A stretch of DNA of 15,323 nt, from the UHGV virus genome UHGV-1764124; one strand, written 5' to 3'. The notes below the pieces were generated by a model. The model made no database searches, was not told where the DNA came from, and saw nothing but the letters and a program-made list of their open reading frames with translations. The translations under genes were made by a program, and so were the position numbers. Of this stretch, positions 8,177-15,323 are shown one piece after another. How positions within the stretch are numbered: position 1 is the first letter of the stretch; each line of letters opens with the position of its first letter. This DNA comes from a virus.

Positions 8177-8205
8177 CCCGCAAAATATTGCGGGCTTTTT
8201 TTTAA
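8177..8205 (+). terminator. Plus-strand-oriented rho-independent terminator overlapping the tailspike stop codon (orphan)
   Basis: Stem CCCGCAA / TTGCGGG with loop AAT(A), followed by eight T on the plus strand. On the minus strand the stem is followed by A-rich sequence, so it is a poor minus-strand terminator. Confidence 0.6.
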
Positions 8206-11200
8206 CGTTCTTCCAGAGACTGAATCCGCTCTTTTATCTTATCCATTTCTCTGCGCTGCCATGCTGCCTCGATATAGAATAAGAGATCAGGTCTGACCCC
8301 CCATCTAGATCCTGCTGGCGTTATTTCAACGCGCTCAATGATGTCTTCCATTACCATCACTGGATTATCATCCTCATCAACAATGATGCTCCCGTCATTA
8401 TCAGTCAGCGGCATTTCCCTTTGGCCAGTAATGACGTCATCATATACTGCGGGATAATCGTCATAGCAAAGAAAGGCATAGCGGCATGTTGTGCTTTCTT
8501 CTTCCATGAGTCCGTGAGAAATAAGAACATCACGAAGTTGCTGCGCGATTACACCATGATGTATCCTCGCCCCTTCTTCCCCCTTTATAGCGACAGCGTT
8601 CAGCCATTTATAAGCGATATACCTGACGTCACCCCAGGCATCCAGCAATGCTTCGTCAGGAGAGACCGGCTCTGTCTTTAATGTTCCGTCACTGGTAACC
8701 ACAGGATTGGAGCCAAGATAAACTGTCGAGAACCTGTTTCCCGGACCACCAAGAGCATTTACATTATCAAGATAAGGTTTAACATCTCCGTTCTCAAAAA
8801 GATGTTCGAGTGCGTTATATACCGCGCGACGTGGAGTACTGCTTCCGGAACCATGCAACGTTATCATTGCACCATCTGCTGAAGACGTTATTTCACCGCC
8901 GCTAACGATTAATCTCTGAGCGGTAACATCATCAGACGGTACTTTCTTCGCAATAATGGCGTAATTACCCTCAAGTTTGACTTCCGCGCGAACTTGTCCT
9001 GATGTACCTGCATGGACAGTCAGTGACTGGACGGCAACATCATCTGTGAAATCAACGGGTACAGGAACCGTCCTCACGCCTGACGTCGACATAAAAGTAG
9101 GAAGCGTTCTGTTAGGAGTGGCTCCGTAGACAAAATCCCTTGAAACAAATTCTTCCTGTTTAATTTTCACCCTGAAACAATACAAATCAGCCGGGTGACC
9201 ATCGTGAACATAAGGATATTTTCTGTTGTTATCCCCTATGCTCCATGGGTTTAGAAAGTCTTCCCCACCGAAAATGTAGTACAGCCAGTTGTCTTTGATA
9301 CAAACTGAACCAACACCAACTGCAGAGTTAACTATTCCGCCCTGATAAATCTGATCAGTAACATTAACCCACTCTACATTATCCAGACTCCACTCATTGA
9401 CGTTAACTCTGGTCATAAATGTTCTTGGATAATTTCCTGCATAACGGTTATCAGGTTCTCCTCCTTCCCACTCACCAAATGCGCGCTCACTGCCAAAAAT
9501 AATCAGCTCATCGCCAACTTTGGCAAAAGGAAGGTTTGAGTGATGAACATTATTTGGGAAGCGAAGAGAATTCCATGATGTACCTAAATCAGAGCTTCTG
9601 TGCAATGAACTACCGGGTTGAGTACTTAATGTCCCCCTGGTCGTCAGATACAGAATGCCATCATAATATTTTACACATGGCTCAGATGCATTCGCCTCAT
9701 ATTCTGCAGGTATGCGTCTGCGAACAAAGCTACCAGGAGAACCGAAAGCATCAGAGAAATAGAGTATCCCAAGCTCGCGTGGACCAATATCACCATTATG
9801 GTAGCCAACAGCAAAACTGTTATCGCTAATCGTCGCAAAACTGTGAATCTCAGTAACAGGAGTGCTTCCGTCAACAAAAGAAGGAATAGTTCCAAGACTG
9901 GTTTTTCTCCATGGTGACGAGTGAAATGATGTACCAAAACTCCAGTATCTACCCTCGTTATTCTGATCCACATCCTGGGTATTTTGCGTCGTAACTGTAA
10001 AAGTATTTTTATCAATAACAGTAGTCACCGTCATATTCCCGGTAACACCTGTAACACCAGAGTTTGAGAAGTTGACAAAATCACCAGCAAATAATCCGTG
10101 ATCAGTAATGCGAATATAAGCGACTTGCTGATTTGCTGCTTTCGTTATACCACCATAAGCGCGAAGGCTGCGACTCATTGGGCGATCCCACAACTCTGCA
10201 ACCTGCAGTTTATTTCCGCTCACGGTCCGCGTCTCAATTACAGCAAAAAGGCGATTTCTGACAACCCCCATACTCATGCAGTGATAGTTAACTGTGGGAT
10301 AGTTTTCATGTAAATCTGTAAGCCATTCCGGCGTTGTCCAGGTCTTCCCGTCATCTCCTGAGCGAACCCATGCAACATGGAGGTTATTTACACCATGGCG
10401 GTCTCCAGCCATAAAAGGCGCATAGATGACATTGTCATATACAAACGTTTTATCCTGCGTCCAGGCGTTGTACCACGGTGTATCTGTAATTTTAAATAAC
10501 TCTCCCTGGATAAAATCTTCAGAAGCATAAAAAAGAGGCTGGCCCGGTATTCTCTCAAATAAAAAACGAGCATTTTTAAATCGACTGACATCCGGAAGAG
10601 TTGATACTTTAAAAGTAAGCCCTAATCCGTCAATTTTATAACCTGGAGATGAGGCTTCAAGGCACGCGCTTATTGCAGTGGAATCGTCATTTATACCATC
10701 ACCAACAGCTCCAAAATCTTTGGGGCTAATAGCATCACGCATTTTATCCTGGAACGTTCGGTACACAGCCCCAGAACCATACTGAATAAACCAACCAAAA
10801 CCACCAACAACCCCGGCGATTGCAGCATCGACATAATTACGCATTGAGCGATTATTTACAGCGTCCTGCTCAAATGATGGATCTGCAAGGTTAGAAATTT
10901 TGTTTTGCTTTGCATCGTAATATTTTGCAAGCAAAGATGGTTTCATCAATGCACGTCTGAACCACCCAAAACATTGCTGGATCAGCATCGTCAGGTAGTC
11001 AAAGGCATCTTCATGCACTTCGGGGAAAAATTTTCCCTGATTGCGAAGGTCTGTCTCCTGCACTACATCAAGCACACGATCTATCGTAATTCGCCATCCA
11101 GTAGCAAGCGGAGACGGAAGAACCACAGAACCGCCACTATAAGTGCCCGCCCCAGTTACCGTATAACCGGTATCCAGAACCAATTCTGTTACGTTTCCGT

Positions 11201-11321
11201 TCAGGTCAGACACCTGAACAACCAGGTCTGATTTTCTGAAAATTCGAAAAGTATACGGAAACGATGTCGTAACGCCGTTACCGGTGTATTCGTTGTGGTC
11301 AACTTCGGTTGAGACCGTCAT
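8202..11321 (-). CDS. Tailspike / tail fibre with T7 gp17-like N-terminal domain, Asp-box (sialidase-like) core and C-terminal S74 chaperone domain; endosialidase-like
   Basis: 1039 aa; SD GGAGA. N-terminus resembles T7 tail fibre gp17 (KISNLADPSFEQDAVNNRSMRNY vs T7 RRIVNLANAVDDRDAVPFGQLKTM, from memory). Two Asp-boxes, SGDDGKTW (321-328) and SSDLGTSW (576-583). DFGAVGDG motif. C-terminal 160 aa with S877/K882 dyad spacing and GARIHHGVIAQQLRD. The CDS is high confidence; endosialidase specificity is about 0.5. Confidence 0.85.
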   Translation of the reverse strand: MTVSTEVDHNEYTGNGVTTSFPYTFRIFRKSDLVVQVSDLNGNVTELVLDTGYTVTGAGTYSGGSVVLPSPLATGWRITIDRVLDVVQETDLRNQGKFFPEVHEDAFDYLTMLIQQCFGWFRRALMKPSLLAKYYDAKQNKISNLADPSFEQDAVNNRSMRNYVDAAIAGVVGGFGWFIQYGSGAVYRTFQDKMRDAISPKDFGAVGDGINDDSTAISACLEASSPGYKIDGLGLTFKVSTLPDVSRFKNARFLFERIPGQPLFYASEDFIQGELFKITDTPWYNAWTQDKTFVYDNVIYAPFMAGDRHGVNNLHVAWVRSGDDGKTWTTPEWLTDLHENYPTVNYHCMSMGVVRNRLFAVIETRTVSGNKLQVAELWDRPMSRSLRAYGGITKAANQQVAYIRITDHGLFAGDFVNFSNSGVTGVTGNMTVTTVIDKNTFTVTTQNTQDVDQNNEGRYWSFGTSFHSSPWRKTSLGTIPSFVDGSTPVTEIHSFATISDNSFAVGYHNGDIGPRELGILYFSDAFGSPGSFVRRRIPAEYEANASEPCVKYYDGILYLTTRGTLSTQPGSSLHRSSDLGTSWNSLRFPNNVHHSNLPFAKVGDELIIFGSERAFGEWEGGEPDNRYAGNYPRTFMTRVNVNEWSLDNVEWVNVTDQIYQGGIVNSAVGVGSVCIKDNWLYYIFGGEDFLNPWSIGDNNRKYPYVHDGHPADLYCFRVKIKQEEFVSRDFVYGATPNRTLPTFMSTSGVRTVPVPVDFTDDVAVQSLTVHAGTSGQVRAEVKLEGNYAIIAKKVPSDDVTAQRLIVSGGEITSSADGAMITLHGSGSSTPRRAVYNALEHLFENGDVKPYLDNVNALGGPGNRFSTVYLGSNPVVTSDGTLKTEPVSPDEALLDAWGDVRYIAYKWLNAVAIKGEEGARIHHGVIAQQLRDVLISHGLMEEESTTCRYAFLCYDDYPAVYDDVITGQREMPLTDNDGSIIVDEDDNPVMVMEDIIERVEITPAGSRWGVRPDLLFYIEAAWQRREMDKIKERIQSLEER

Positions 11322-11424
11322 GTTAAATCTCCAGATAGTCGCAGCACCCGTTGCGCCGCATATCTGGTTATTCTATTACCTGGAAAACCACATATGGATA
11401 GAAAGGATGTAAATACGAATAGAT

Positions 11425-11441
11425 ATTACCTTTCAGGTAAT
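11425..11441. promoter_or_regulatory. Third copy of operator-like palindrome ATTACC-tttca-GGTAAT
   Basis: Same 6-bp arms and 5-bp spacer as 505-521, with shared flanks (ATAGAT...GGTAATTT); sits in the divergent region between the tailspike start and the LexA-box gene, just before TTGCAA (11442-11447). Confidence 0.3.
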
Positions 11442-11477
11442 TTGCAAAACGTGCTGGATAGCAAACAAATTATTTGA

Positions 11478-11497
11478 TACTGTATAAATATACAGTT
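11478..11497 (+). promoter_or_regulatory. LexA (SOS) box
   Basis: TACTGTATAAATATACAGTT matches the E. coli consensus TACTGTATATATATACAGTA at 18 of 20 positions, with a perfect CTGT-N8-ACAG core; lies 20 bp upstream of ATG 11517. Confidence 0.75.
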
Positions 11498-11516: not shown

Positions 11517-11774
11517 ATGCAGCAGTATCACTATCCACTGGAAGACGGATTTACCGAAAGGATTCACACGCCGGGAGGCGTCAGGTCACTGGTGGAGGGA
11601 TCGCACTTGATGAAATTACTCCGGGATCTCGATAAGGATGGATTTAATGTCGATGGCCCACTTGCCGAACTGACTGCACTGATTAACTACGTCACCAGCT
11701 CACAGATGTCTATGCAGGATCTGCAAACACATCTCGACTATTGTGCCGAACAATTACGAAAACAAACCCGGTAA
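11517..11774 (+). CDS. Small LexA-box-associated protein (85 aa), function unknown; candidate SOS-induced antirepressor or moron
   Basis: ATG 11517 with SD GGAGAA (11505-11510) is preferred over the track start at 11499; opposite orientation to all flanking late genes; no transmembrane segment; no motif I recognise. Confidence 0.6.
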   Translation: MQQYHYPLEDGFTERIHTPGGVRSLVEGSHLMKLLRDLDKDGFNVDGPLAELTALINYVTSSQMSMQDLQTHLDYCAEQLRKQTR

Positions 11775-11780
11775 ATTTAA

Positions 11781-11798
11781 AGGCCGCGAAAGCGGCCT
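11781..11798. terminator. GC-rich hairpin between convergent genes (probably a minus-strand terminator, possibly bidirectional)
   Basis: Stem AGGCCGC / GCGGCCT with loop GAAA; on the minus strand it is followed by TTTAAATTTA, whereas on the plus strand no U-tract follows. Confidence 0.5.
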
Positions 11799-14447: not shown

Positions 14448-15275
14448 TTAACCTCTCAAGAAACACGCCACAGCGACATCAAACAGGCTGGAATCCTGTA
14501 TTGCCTGCTCACTTTCCCTGTTCGCTTCATCCAGTACTTCACGCGCGCTGCGCGATTGTGGATTACCATCATCATCCAGCACGGTGATTATCATGTCCGG
14601 ATATTCAAGCAGCGAGTCTTCAGCTATACGCAGATCAATATCTCCTGCCGGATCTGCCATCATTTTTTGTTCTGTCTGTTGCAATATCTTACCGGGATCA
14701 AAAGGAGCTACTTCGTCTGGCGTCCTGACCTCTGCTGTTTTATAGAATGAAACAGCCTGAGCATTAAGTTCACTTTCTGCCTGCTGTCTCCGAGCCAGTT
14801 CTGCTCGAGCTTCAAAAAACTGACCGCCAGGCTCATGCGGTGCCAACGCGTTACGGGAAAATTCCAGGCGTTCTTGTGCCTGCCGGATTCGTTGGTCAAT
14901 ATCCCGAAGTCTGGCCTGTTTATCTGATCGAGCACGAGACAAAGCTTTACCGCTACCGGCTGGATCTTCTGCAAGAATTTGTGCGCGCTGTTCAGTGAGA
15001 TTTTCAATAATTCGTTGGCTATTAGCGATTTCAGACTGGTAAACCTGTCTATCGCCACGCGGCAAAAGCTGCGCGGCCTGTTCTTCAAGCAACCGATTTT
15101 CTATAGCGCGCGCCGTTACTCCATCATCTACAGATGACAGAGCCTCATTAACTGCCTGAGACAGCAGACTCTTGCGTCCAGGAATTTCACTGAAAGATGC
15201 AGACTCAACAATGCTGGCAACGTCTACAGGTCTCCCCTGGCTAACATCAGACATGGCTTTTCGCAGAGCCTGAAC
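14448..15275 (-). CDS. Virion-module protein, 5'-truncated at the adapter junction (at least 275 aa)
   Basis: The reading frame stays open upstream of the first Met (15254) to the adapter at 15276, and that Met has no SD, so the N-terminus is probably missing. Charged, helical, Q/R/E-rich; stop lies 5 nt before the 824-aa gene start. Confidence 0.65.
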   Translation of the reverse strand, partial: VQALRKAMSDVSQGRPVDVASIVESASFSEIPGRKSLLSQAVNEALSSVDDGVTARAIENRLLEEQAAQLLPRGDRQVYQSEIANSQRIIENLTEQRAQILAEDPAGSGKALSRARSDKQARLRDIDQRIRQAQERLEFSRNALAPHEPGGQFFEARAELARRQQAESELNAQAVSFYKTAEVRTPDEVAPFDPGKILQQTEQKMMADPAGDIDLRIAEDSLLEYPDMIITVLDDDGNPQSRSAREVLDEANRESEQAIQDSSLFDVAVACFLRG

Positions 15276-15323
15276 TGTCTCTTATACACATCTCCGAGCC
15301 CACGAGACCGAGGCTGATCTCGT
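15276..15323. other. Synthetic Illumina Nextera adapter read-through (mosaic end complement CTGTCTCTTATACACATCT, CCGAGCCCACGAGAC, 8-nt i7 index CGAGGCTG, ATCTCGT)
   Basis: Exact match to the Nextera read-2 adapter structure as I know it. Not biological sequence. Confidence 0.95.

What the first reader, a model, noticed from the sequence alone, without database searches (positions are those of the whole stretch)
11421..11447. The same palindrome, with matching flanks, recurs 11 kb away upstream of the LexA-box gene
ATAGAT-ATTACC-tttca-GGTAATTT at 11421-11444 matches the site at 501-523 (ATAGATTACC-ttacg-GGTAATTT) over about 20 bp, including flanks. Chance recurrence of that length in 15 kb is unlikely. 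It lies in the divergent region between the tailspike start and the SOS-box gene, directly abutting a -35-like TTGCAA. This suggests one regulator controls both the early operon and this locus, which would place the LexA-box gene under dual control.
Basis: seen in the sequence. Interest (0 to 1): 0.55.

Follow-up and report, generated by a model that had tools for sequence, protein, structure and literature searches.

The report
Phage repressor operator beside antirepressor gene
The repeated palindrome is a predicted binding site for this epsilon15/phiV10-type phage's own lysogeny repressor, placed between the tailspike gene and the LexA-controlled antirepressor gene; it is real and conserved, but the matching site is already annotated in the epsilon15 reference genome, so it is largely ordinary.

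Summary
ATTACC-N5-GGTAAT occurs exactly at 11425-11441 and 505-521, with a one-mismatch copy at 567-583 (about 0.001 exact copies expected by chance).

The window is a phiV10/epsilon15-like temperate podophage (Uetakevirus). The "LexA-box gene" is the orthologue of the SPC32H antirepressor Ant (PDB 5D50). The ORF ending at 448 is the C-terminal part of the repressor Rep.

The palindrome is a genus-wide motif, with 12-19 copies per sequence scanned against about 1 expected. It sits in threes between rep and cro and in pairs 62 bp apart around early promoters.

The copy next to ant is found in all 12 homologous intergenic regions from eight host genera. Arm identity is 0.92-1.00; the spacer and left flank vary. 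It also occurs in 53 E. coli prophages.

The epsilon15 RefSeq record already annotates the orthologous site as "protein_bind: repressor".

So "one regulator for both loci" is well supported. "Dual control of ant" is plausible but unproven. The site lies about 57 bp upstream of the predicted ant start and about 70 bp upstream of a predicted tailspike promoter, outside both core promoters. The ATAGAT flank and the TTGCAA "-35" are not supported.

Novelty: already known as a prediction. Interest is low to moderate.

The parts
11425..11441 (.). 17-bp dyad ATTACC-TTTCA-GGTAAT, a predicted Rep (lysogeny repressor) operator. It is solitary and is the best match to the site profile in the whole window.
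   Evidence: Exact match. PWM score 27.0 bits against 22.7 and 20.4 for the early-promoter sites, and no second site within 150 bp. Arm identity 1.00 and 0.92 across 11 homologous regions, spacer 0.65. The orthologous site is annotated 'protein_bind repressor' in epsilon15, NC_004775.2 19895-19911.
505..521 (.). Upstream operator of the early-left (PL-type) promoter, centred about -62.
   Evidence: Exact dyad. It lies 62 bp from the partner at 567-583, and the same 62-bp pair is found in all seven relatives whose PL region was read.
567..583 (.). Promoter-proximal operator of the early-left promoter (ATTACCCCAACGGTAAC). It overlaps the end of the -10 and the predicted transcription start.
540..568 (+). 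Predicted early-left promoter, TTGACA-17 bp-AATTAT.
   Evidence: Promoter scan, 10 of 12 consensus matches.
50..448 (+). C-terminal 132 residues of the repressor Rep. The N-terminal DNA-binding domain is lost at the contig end.
   Evidence: Matches PDB 5d50_A 'Repressor' at E = 3e-21. Annotated as repressor in relatives.
   Evidence: Matches PDB 5d50_E 'Anti-repressor protein' at E = 4e-47. 88% identical to SPC32H Ant.
11480..11495 (+). LexA box, CTGTATAAATATACAG.
   Evidence: Read directly and conserved. SPC32H and SPC32N differ by one base (ACAG to AAAG) in the orthologous box.
11455..11483 (+). Predicted ant promoter: -35 TGGATA (11455-11460), a 17-bp spacer, TG at 11475-11476, and -10 TACTGT (11478-11483) overlapping the LexA box.
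   Evidence: This is an inference from conservation. TGCTGGATAG has identity 0.93 and TTGATACTGT 0.88 across 11 sequences. The strict promoter scan did not call it.
11370..11397 (-). Predicted tailspike promoter: the motif CCATATGTGGTT (11397-11386) followed by -10 TAGAAT (11375-11370). A lone GGTAAT half-site (11380-11375) overlaps the -10.
   Evidence: Conserved block, identity 0.80-0.90. The same motif followed by a -10-like hexamer (TAATTT, TATAAT or TATGAT) lies upstream of the head operon and the lysis cassette in relatives.
8202..11321 (-). Tailspike gene.
   Evidence: ORF list and annotation of relatives.
5822..5838 (.). Degenerate dyad TATACC-TTTAA-GGTAAT, 42-58 bp upstream of the integrase start. 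It carries the same mismatch in all relatives.
   Evidence: 17.2 bits.

Best explanation
The dyad at 11425-11441 is an operator for the phage's own lysogeny repressor Rep, an N-terminal helix-turn-helix protein that binds palindromic DNA as a tetramer.

It is one of about a dozen copies of a genus-wide site, (A/T)TTACC-NNWNN-GGTAA(T/A). These copies mark the switch region, the early promoters and several other intergenic regions.

In a lysogen, Rep would sit on this near-consensus, solitary site in the middle of the tailspike/ant divergent control region. That places it about 57 bp upstream of the predicted ant start and about 70 bp upstream of the predicted tailspike start.

The site does not cover the -35/-10 of either promoter. 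The primary lock on ant is therefore LexA, whose box covers the -10 and the start point.

I take the Rep site to be an auxiliary, upstream-type operator. It occupies roughly the position of the upstream partner (-62) at the early promoters, and it would add a Rep-dependent input to ant transcription. I favour damping. In that case, once LexA is cleaved and the first Ant molecules strip Rep from DNA, ant transcription would rise further, giving positive feedback that commits the prophage to induction.

Shown: the site, its conservation, its identity with the sites at the switch and early promoters, and the identities of Ant and Rep.

Inferred: that Rep binds here, the promoter positions, and the direction of any effect.

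Rough sub-confidences: Rep operator 0.9; measurable effect on ant 0.45; that effect being negative 0.3.
For: - The window is a phiV10/epsilon15-like phage. Ant and Rep orthologues match PDB 5D50 chains E and A.
- The motif is strongly over-represented: 4 sites (at most 1 mismatch) in the window against 0.3 expected, and 12-19 against about 1 in five relatives.
- In phiV10, all 12 sites outside the annotated terS CDS lie in annotated intergenic regions.
- There are three sites between rep and the cro-like gene.
- Pairs 62 bp apart bracket the early promoters, with one partner over the -10/+1.
- The Rep helix NLVNRW is conserved in all relatives that share the motif.
- Footprint across 11 sequences from eight host genera: left arm identity 1.00, right arm 0.92, spacer 0.65, neighbouring DNA 0.41-0.54. 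Spacing to the LexA box is fixed at 38 bp, with 37 bp in one sequence.
- In 53 E. coli prophage contigs the left arm is invariant and the right arm is GGTAAT (40) or GGTGAT (13).
- The ant-proximal site has the best profile score in the window, 27.0 bits.
- The epsilon15 RefSeq record annotates the orthologous 17-mer as 'protein_bind: repressor'.
- Papers that cite Kim et al. 2016 state that Rep binds palindromic sites as a tetramer (PMC9638917, PMC9986798).
- Rep overexpression in the near-identical phage ZX5 cut lysis-gene mRNA by more than 99.9% (PMC9782041).
Against: - No binding data for this site were accessible. Kim & Ryu 2013, Kim et al. 2016 and Kropinski et al. 2007 are not held in the library.
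- The site lies outside the predicted core promoter of ant, so it might have no effect, or it might activate rather than damp.
- Strong Rep repression of ant would conflict with SOS induction, which must work while Rep is still bound.
- Rep is reported to need the tetramer for good binding, yet there is no second site within 150 bp.
- The promoter positions are predictions from conservation only; the strict scan called no promoter in this region.
- Every Ant-bearing phage found shares the same operator specificity, so no covariation test between heteroimmune phages was possible.
Confidence: 0.55

Rival explanations
1. The operator serves the tailspike gene, not ant. Rep bound at about -70 keeps the tailspike's own late-type promoter (CCATATGTGGTT followed by TAGAAT on the minus strand) silent in the lysogen. 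It could do this by blocking an upstream activator or alpha-subunit contact, or by reaching the GGTAAT half-site that overlaps the -10 with its second pair of DNA-binding domains.
For: - A dyad lies 29-41 bp upstream of the same CCATATNTGGTT motif at the head-operon promoter in four phages, and at the lysis-cassette promoter in four phages.
- At the head operon, the GGTAA next to the -10 lies exactly 62 bp from the dyad, the spacing of the early-promoter pairs.
- The tailspike needs its own promoter, because ant and a terminator separate it from the structural operon.
- The spacing from the dyad to the tailspike -10 half-site is fixed at 50 bp in all 11 sequences.
Against: - The lysis-cassette promoter keeps the motif but has no dyad in this window (7966-7956) or in TL-2011b.
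- Where a dyad is present at the lysis cassette, it sits 26-47 bp from the start of a divergent conversion gene and supplies the TG of that gene's extended -10. So the dyad is not an obligatory part of the late-promoter module.
- The distances from dyad to promoter vary (-70, -82, -70).
- At the tailspike the half-site is 50 bp away, not 62 bp.
Confidence: 0.25
2. The site is an architectural anchor. A Rep tetramer bound here uses its free pair of DNA-binding domains to loop to other solitary operators (upstream of terS, the head operon or the integrase gene). This would raise local Rep concentration and compact the prophage, with little direct effect on either neighbouring promoter.
For: - Rep is reported to be a tetramer with two DNA-binding pairs.
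- Several solitary, conserved, near-consensus sites are scattered over the genome.
- This one is the strongest in the window and has no local partner.
Against: - There is no direct evidence for long-range looping in this family.
- The rigid spacing of the dyad to both flanking promoters in all homologues suggests a local role.
Confidence: 0.12
3. During lytic growth the site is used mainly by the small cro-like protein encoded divergently from rep, for example to shut ant off once it is no longer needed. Rep binding in the lysogen would then be incidental.
For: By analogy with lambda, where Cro and CI share operators (established knowledge). A cro-like gene lies next to the triple operator.
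Against: The cro-like protein matches no Pfam family. Nothing shows that it recognises this dyad. The ant/Rep logic does not require it.
Confidence: 0.05
4. The palindrome acts as an RNA hairpin or weak terminator, or is a chance recurrence.
For: A hairpin with a 6-7 bp stem can form. At 505-521 it is followed by a run of seven T.
Against: - The predicted hairpins are weak (-5.5 to -7.6 kcal/mol) and no better than 5-24 of 200 shuffles.
- The terminator scan does not call them, and there is no Rfam match.
- The arms are invariant rather than covarying.
- Triple and paired arrangements at promoters fit a DNA-binding protein.
- Chance expectation is 0.001 exact copies.
Confidence: 0.03

Closest known systems
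Predicted repressor-binding sites annotated in Salmonella phage epsilon15 (RefSeq NC_004775.2, 'protein_bind: repressor, lysogeny')
   Same: The orthologous 17-mer ATTACCTGTAAGGTAAT is annotated at 19895-19911, between gp19 (the Ant homologue) and the tail-fibre gene. Further annotated copies lie upstream of terS, upstream of the head operon, at the early-left promoter (three) and upstream of the resolvase gene. The arms, the position and the neighbouring genes are the same as in the window.
   Different: The spacer and flanks differ. The epsilon15 record does not annotate the three sites between rep and the cro-like gene, and it still calls gp19 hypothetical, so it does not link the site to an antirepressor. 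As far as I could read, these sites are predictions, not measurements.
Rep / Ant / LexA antirepression switch of Salmonella phage SPC32H (Kim & Ryu 2013; Kim et al. 2016; PDB 5D4Z and 5D50)
   Same: Ant is 88% identical, Rep is homologous, the LexA box is at the same place, and the same dyad lies upstream. From my memory of the 2013 abstract: Rep is not cleaved during SOS but is inactivated by Ant, and the LexA box overlaps the ant promoter.
   Different: I could not read these papers, so I do not know whether they noticed or tested the Rep site upstream of ant. The secondary sources I could read mention Rep binding to palindromic sites only as a tetramer.
Lambda CI with OR1-3 and OL1-3
   Same: 17-bp two-fold symmetric operators. 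Triple arrays between the repressor and cro genes. A second set sits at a promoter downstream of the repressor gene.
   Different: Rep is a non-cleavable tetramer inactivated by an antirepressor. Its operators are also scattered outside the immunity region. The early promoters carry pairs 62 bp apart rather than adjacent triplets.
Phage P1 C1 repressor with dispersed operators, including the one controlling the immI operon (c4-icd-ant)
   Same: From established knowledge: a primary repressor with many operators spread over the genome, one of which controls the operon that encodes its own antirepressor.
   Different: P1 operators are asymmetric. The protein family is unrelated. P1 ant is further controlled by an antisense RNA, not by LexA.
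CTX-phi rstA promoter, repressed jointly by the phage repressor RstR and host LexA
   Same: From established knowledge: a phage promoter that integrates a phage repressor and LexA.
   Different: In CTX-phi both proteins act on the main lytic promoter, not on an antirepressor gene. The proteins and sites are unrelated.

Membership tests
Uetakevirus Rep operator (ATTACC-N5-GGTAAT) | 17-bp two-fold symmetric site with arms TTACC/GGTAA separated by 5 bp | tested here: met
   Exact match at 11425-11441.
Uetakevirus Rep operator (ATTACC-N5-GGTAAT) | Extended consensus: A/T flanking the arms and A/T at the central spacer position | tested here: met
   A profile built from 44 exact sites gives this site 27.0 bits, the highest score in the window. 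Its central base is T.
Uetakevirus Rep operator (ATTACC-N5-GGTAAT) | The same motif forms the operators of the rep/cro switch and the early promoters | tested here: met
   Three sites lie in the rep-cro intergenic region of phiV10, SPC32H, 65FD, Tyrion, BUCT711 and epsilon15. Pairs lie at the early promoters. The switch region itself lies outside the window.
Uetakevirus Rep operator (ATTACC-N5-GGTAAT) | Conserved at the orthologous position in relatives | tested here: met
   Present in 12 of 12 intergenic regions from eight host genera and in 53 of 53 full-length prophage contigs. Annotated as a repressor site in epsilon15.
Uetakevirus Rep operator (ATTACC-N5-GGTAAT) | The cognate repressor, with its conserved recognition helix, is encoded by the same phage | tested here: inconclusive
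   The rep gene is present, but only residues from about 63 onward (50-448). The DNA-binding domain is cut off by the contig end and adapter. Relatives whose rep-PL segment is 96-98% identical in DNA carry a complete rep gene. The NLVNRW helix was read in phiV10, Tyrion, 65FD, SPC32H, BUCT711 and epsilon15.
Uetakevirus Rep operator (ATTACC-N5-GGTAAT) | Physically bound by Rep | not testable with these tools
   Needs a gel shift, footprint or ChIP experiment. The primary papers were not readable.
SPC32H-type LexA-controlled antirepressor module | Small Ant protein homologous to 5D50 chain E | tested here: met
   E = 4e-47 over residues 2-84.
SPC32H-type LexA-controlled antirepressor module | A consensus LexA box at the ant promoter | tested here: met
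   CTGT-N8-ACAG at 11480-11495, 22 bp upstream of the ATG. The orthologous box carries the SPC32H/SPC32N difference. Its overlap with the promoter is predicted, not mapped.
Intrinsic terminator / structured RNA | A stable G+C-rich stem followed by a U run, or a match to a known RNA family | tested here: not met
   The stem is A+T-rich and weak, with z-scores of -1.1 to -2.5. The terminator scan does not call it. There is no Rfam match.
Sigma-70 promoter using TTGCAA (11442-11447) as its -35 | A -10 hexamer 16-18 bp downstream, conserved in relatives | tested here: not met
   No promoter is called in the region. The sequence 17 bp downstream is ACAAAT here and is not conserved. The second T of TTGCAA is polymorphic.

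The most novel reading that the evidence does not exclude
The repressor directly tunes transcription of the gene for its own antirepressor. A solitary consensus Rep operator at about -57 of the LexA-gated ant promoter would close a feedback loop (Rep acts on ant, Ant inactivates Rep). This would turn SOS-triggered induction into a latch if Rep damps ant, or into a self-limiting pulse if Rep activates it. It would also be one node of a genome-wide Rep operator network whose 62-bp pairs match the tetrameric, two-palindrome binding mode seen in the crystal structures. I found no description of such a loop in the literature I could read.
Probability: 0.3. Interest if true: 0.5.

Novelty: already known. 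Interest (0 to 1): 0.25.

Why it matters
If Rep really modulates ant, the lysis-lysogeny switch of epsilon15/phiV10/SPC32H-type phages contains a feedback loop between a repressor and its antirepressor. These phages are common prophages of E. coli (including O157), Salmonella, Klebsiella and Citrobacter.

Such a loop would shape how sharply and how irreversibly the prophages respond to DNA damage. That bears on spontaneous induction and on engineering these phages.

As it stands, the finding mainly confirms that a site predicted in epsilon15 is conserved across the genus. It also links that site to a gene now known to be the antirepressor.

Tried and rejected
1. Covariation between heteroimmune phages would be the strongest computational test that one protein reads all the sites. 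It was not possible. Every Ant-bearing phage whose repressor and operators I read (Escherichia, Salmonella, Enterobacter, Klebsiella) shares the same half-site and the same Rep helix NLVNRW. The prophage loci from the other genera carry the same dyad upstream of ant.

2. I tried to separate an ant-linked role from a tailspike-linked role by finding relatives without ant next to the tailspike. All enterobacterial relatives have it, and the next relatives (Pseudomonas and others) are too distant.

3. The idea that the dyad is an integral part of a late-promoter module is weakened. The lysis-cassette promoter in this window and in TL-2011b has the motif but no dyad.

4. The ATAGAT flank as part of the site is rejected. 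It is 2 nt out of register, not conserved across genera, and polymorphic within E. coli.

5. TTGCAA as a -35 is rejected, because it has no conserved -10 partner.

6. The RNA hairpin or terminator reading is rejected.

7. A supposed second Ant paralogue with its own Rep operator in Klebsiella phage ST512-KPC3phi13.3 is not an Ant homologue (16% identity). It is merely another accessory gene whose start codon is preceded, about 14 bp upstream, by an exact dyad.

8. Kim & Ryu 2013, Kim et al. 2016 and Kropinski et al. 2007 are not held. Full-text searches for four operator sequences found nothing.

9. A second Rep site within 150 bp that could pair with the dyad was not found. Only a lone half-site lies 50 bp away.

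Full report
**What is in the sequence**

The dyad ATTACC-TTTCA-GGTAAT lies at 11425-11441. ATAGAT precedes it (11419-11424) and TTGCAA follows it (11442-11447). An exact copy of the arms lies at 505-521 (ATTACC-TTACG-GGTAAT), and a one-mismatch copy at 567-583.

- The 12 specified bases are expected 0.0011 times in the window.
- With up to two mismatches there are 5 matches against 0.49 expected, and none of 200 shuffles reaches 5.
- The shared ATAGAT is out of register by 2 nt relative to the dyad. In register the flanks agree at only 10 of 24 positions.

**What the window is**

The region around both sites matches phiV10, ZX5, TL-2011b and other Escherichia phages at 92-99% identity. It matches Salmonella epsilon15/SPN1S-type and Enterobacter phages at about 77%. 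All these relatives that carry a genus assignment belong to Uetakevirus.

From the phiV10 annotation:
- The ORF ending at 448 is the repressor gene. It is followed by a terminator (469-488) and the early-left operon, whose promoter is TTGACA-17 bp-AATTAT at 540-568.
- The 1039-codon minus-strand ORF 8202-11321 is the tailspike.
- The 85-codon gene at 11517-11774 corresponds to phiV10 p24 and epsilon15 gp19.

That small gene is the antirepressor. It matches PDB 5D50 chain E ("Anti-repressor protein") at E = 4e-47 and is 88% identical to SPC32H Ant. The truncated ORF at 50-448 matches 5D50 chain A ("Repressor") at E = 3e-21.

From memory of Kim & Ryu 2013: SPC32H Rep is not cleaved during the SOS response but is inactivated by Ant, and the ant promoter is overlapped by a LexA box. 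Consistent with this, the SPC32H and SPC32N genomes differ at two bases, and one of them changes ACAG to AAAG in the orthologous LexA box.

**What the palindrome is**

The dyad TTACC-N5-GGTAA is a genus-wide motif. With at most one mismatch it occurs 14, 18, 19 and 13 times in the complete genomes of phiV10, SPC32H, 65FD and BUCT711, and 12 times in 22.8 kb of Tyrion. About one is expected in each.

The positions are conserved:
- Three sites lie between the repressor gene and the divergent cro-like gene.
- A pair 62 bp apart lies at the early-left promoter. In the window these are centred at 513 and 575, that is about -62 and +1.
- A second 62-bp pair lies upstream of the DUF1064/resolvase gene.
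- Single sites lie after the cro terminator, upstream of terS, upstream of the head operon, in the ant-tailspike region, next to divergent O-antigen conversion genes, and upstream of the integrase gene.

A triple array in the switch region, together with sites over the -10/+1 of early promoters, is the arrangement expected for operators of the lysogeny repressor.

All these phages share the putative recognition helix NLVNRW in the Rep N-terminal domain. Secondary sources state that Rep binds palindromic sites as a tetramer whose four DNA-binding domains form two pairs. That fits the paired sites.

In the near-identical phage ZX5, Rep overexpression lowered holin and endolysin mRNA by more than 99.9%. 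Ant overexpression lowered rep mRNA by 75%. That paper defines no operators.

**Conservation of the ant-proximal copy**

I aligned the tailspike-ant intergenic region from 11 sources: the window, phiV10, SPC32H, 65FD, Tyrion, BUCT711, and prophages of Citrobacter (two), Erwinia, Pseudocitrobacter and Scandinavium.

| Block | Mean pairwise identity |
|---|---|
| Left arm | 1.00 |
| Right arm | 0.92 |
| Spacer | 0.65 |
| 27 bp to the left of the dyad | 0.54 |
| 4 bp after TTGCAA | 0.41 |

The distance to the LexA box is 38 bp in ten sequences and 37 bp in one. Epsilon15 carries the same site.

Among 53 E. coli prophage contigs from IMG/VR (42 distinct sequences):
- the left arm never varies;
- the right arm is GGTAAT in 40 and GGTGAT in 13;
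- the spacer and the ATAGAT flank are polymorphic.

A profile built from 44 exact sites scores the ant-proximal site at 27.0 bits, the best in the window. The early-promoter sites score 22.7 and 20.4. There is no second site within 150 bp.

**Already annotated**

The epsilon15 RefSeq record carries "protein_bind: repressor (lysogeny)" features at seven copies of the dyad. One is ATTACCTGTAAGGTAAT at 19895-19911, between gp19 and the tail-fibre gene, which is the orthologue of 11425-11441. So the site has been recognised as a predicted operator. The record still calls gp19 hypothetical, however, and does not link the site to an antirepressor.

**Where the site sits relative to promoters**

The strict promoter scan finds nothing in the intergenic region. 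Conservation suggests two promoters.

Towards ant:
- TGCTGGATAG (11452-11461, identity 0.93) supplies a -35, TGGATA.
- Seventeen base pairs later comes TG-n-TACTGT (11475-11483, identity 0.88). This is an extended -10 that forms the left end of the LexA box.
- The predicted start is near 11490, which places the dyad centre at about -57.

Towards the tailspike:
- The conserved CCATATGTGGTT (11397-11386) is followed by TAGAAT (11375-11370).
- The same motif followed by a -10-like hexamer (TAATTT, TATAAT or TATGAT) lies upstream of the head operon and the lysis cassette in relatives.
- The dyad centre would be at about -70.

Its second T is polymorphic, and it has no conserved -10 partner.

**How it most likely works**

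The dyad covers neither core promoter, so it cannot act by simple occlusion. LexA is the primary lock on ant.

I consider it an auxiliary, upstream-type operator. It occupies roughly the position of the upstream partner at the early promoters, with the LexA box where the downstream partner would be. This gives Rep an input into ant transcription. I favour damping, which would create positive feedback once Ant begins to remove Rep.

This step is inferred, and the sign is uncertain. Strong repression would be incompatible with SOS induction.

The main rival is that the site serves the tailspike late-type promoter.
- For: similar dyad-to-motif arrangements exist at two other late units.
- Against: the lysis-cassette promoter in this window and in TL-2011b keeps the motif without any dyad. 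Where a dyad is present there, it belongs to a divergent conversion-gene promoter.

An architectural looping role and use by the cro-like protein remain possible. An RNA hairpin or terminator is disfavoured: the predicted structures are weak, there is no covariation, there is no Rfam match, and the terminator scan does not call them.

**Limits**

- No binding or expression data for this site were available. The three primary papers could not be read, and full-text searches for operator sequences found nothing.
- Covariation between heteroimmune phages could not be tested, because all Ant-bearing phages share one specificity.
- No enterobacterial relative lacks ant next to the tailspike.
- The window lacks the Rep DNA-binding domain and the switch region. 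It starts inside rep, after a sequencing adapter.

**Verdict**

- The "same regulator" reading is well supported.
- "Dual control of ant" is plausible but untested.
- The flank and -35 details are not supported.
- The feature is an orthologue of a site already annotated in epsilon15. It is therefore already known as a prediction and of low-to-moderate interest. One untested idea is worth an experiment: a Rep-ant feedback loop.

Noticed in passing
window 23-49 and 15275-15293: The Nextera/Tn5 mosaic-end adapter (GCAGCGTCAGATGTGTATAAGAGACAG, and its reverse complement CTGTCTCTTATACACATCT) sits at both ends of the window. The first and last ~50 bases are therefore sequencing artefact, and the 'GTG start' of ORF 35-448 is spurious. 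One IMG/VR contig of the same phage type shows the same adapter at its end.
   Followed up: partly
window 11397-11386 (-) and 7966-7956 (-); L003 (phiV10) 3308, 20921, 24739, 33142: A second conserved motif, CCATATNTGGTT (half-palindromic CCATATATGG), lies 5-6 bp upstream of a G(G/T)TA-containing -10 region, just upstream of the head operon, the tailspike and the lysis cassette. It looks like a late-promoter element for an unknown activator. The same motif lies in the spacer of early promoters in phage Tyrion and next to the Rep site after the cro terminator. Its binding protein is unknown.
   Followed up: partly
window 505-521 and 567-583; equivalents in L003-L007 and L097: Rep-type dyads come in pairs exactly 62 bp apart centre to centre (63 bp in one case). 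They lie at two early promoters in every genome examined, with one partner at about -62 and one over the start site. This geometry would suit a tetramer that binds two palindromes.
   Followed up: partly
window 5809-5844: The degenerate dyad TATACC-TTTAA-GGTAAT (5822-5838) lies 42-58 bp upstream of the integrase start. It is nested in a longer inverted repeat, GACGGTAT...ATACCGTC, and carries the same mismatch in all relatives. It is not the attP core reported for ZX5, which lies 190 bp from int. It could be a weak Rep site or an Int/Xis-related site.
   Followed up: no
L003 (phiV10) 24692-24706; L004 24782-24796; L006 34415-34429; L005 7409-7423: Upstream of the divergent O-antigen conversion genes (oac, gtrA-like), the dyad always carries the arm variant GGTGA. 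Its TG, one base, and then TATTAT, TAAAAT, TAATAT or TAAAGT form an extended -10. Rep would therefore sit on the core promoter of genes usually thought to be expressed in lysogens.
   Followed up: no
L001 (phiV10) 3594-3634; L013 3818-3832; L005 2394-2408; L007 17377-17391: Where cargo genes are inserted downstream of ant (Bro-N proteins, a DUF2335 protein, a small gene unrelated to Ant), another Rep-type dyad follows ant. In phiV10 it sits at the tip of a perfect 18-bp-arm hairpin, and in ST512-KPC3phi13.3 it lies about 14 bp upstream of the accessory gene's start codon.
   Followed up: no
window 11781-11798: A G+C-rich hairpin (AGGCCGCGAAAGCGGCCT) lies between the ant stop codon and the convergent minus-strand genes downstream of ant. 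On the minus strand it is scored as terminator-like, and it probably ends transcription from both directions. This is why the tailspike would need its own promoter.
   Followed up: no
L097 (epsilon15) 911-933: The epsilon15 record annotates an IHF site directly beside the repressor site, on the tailspike side. The corresponding 27 bp in the window are not conserved and show no good IHF consensus.
   Followed up: no
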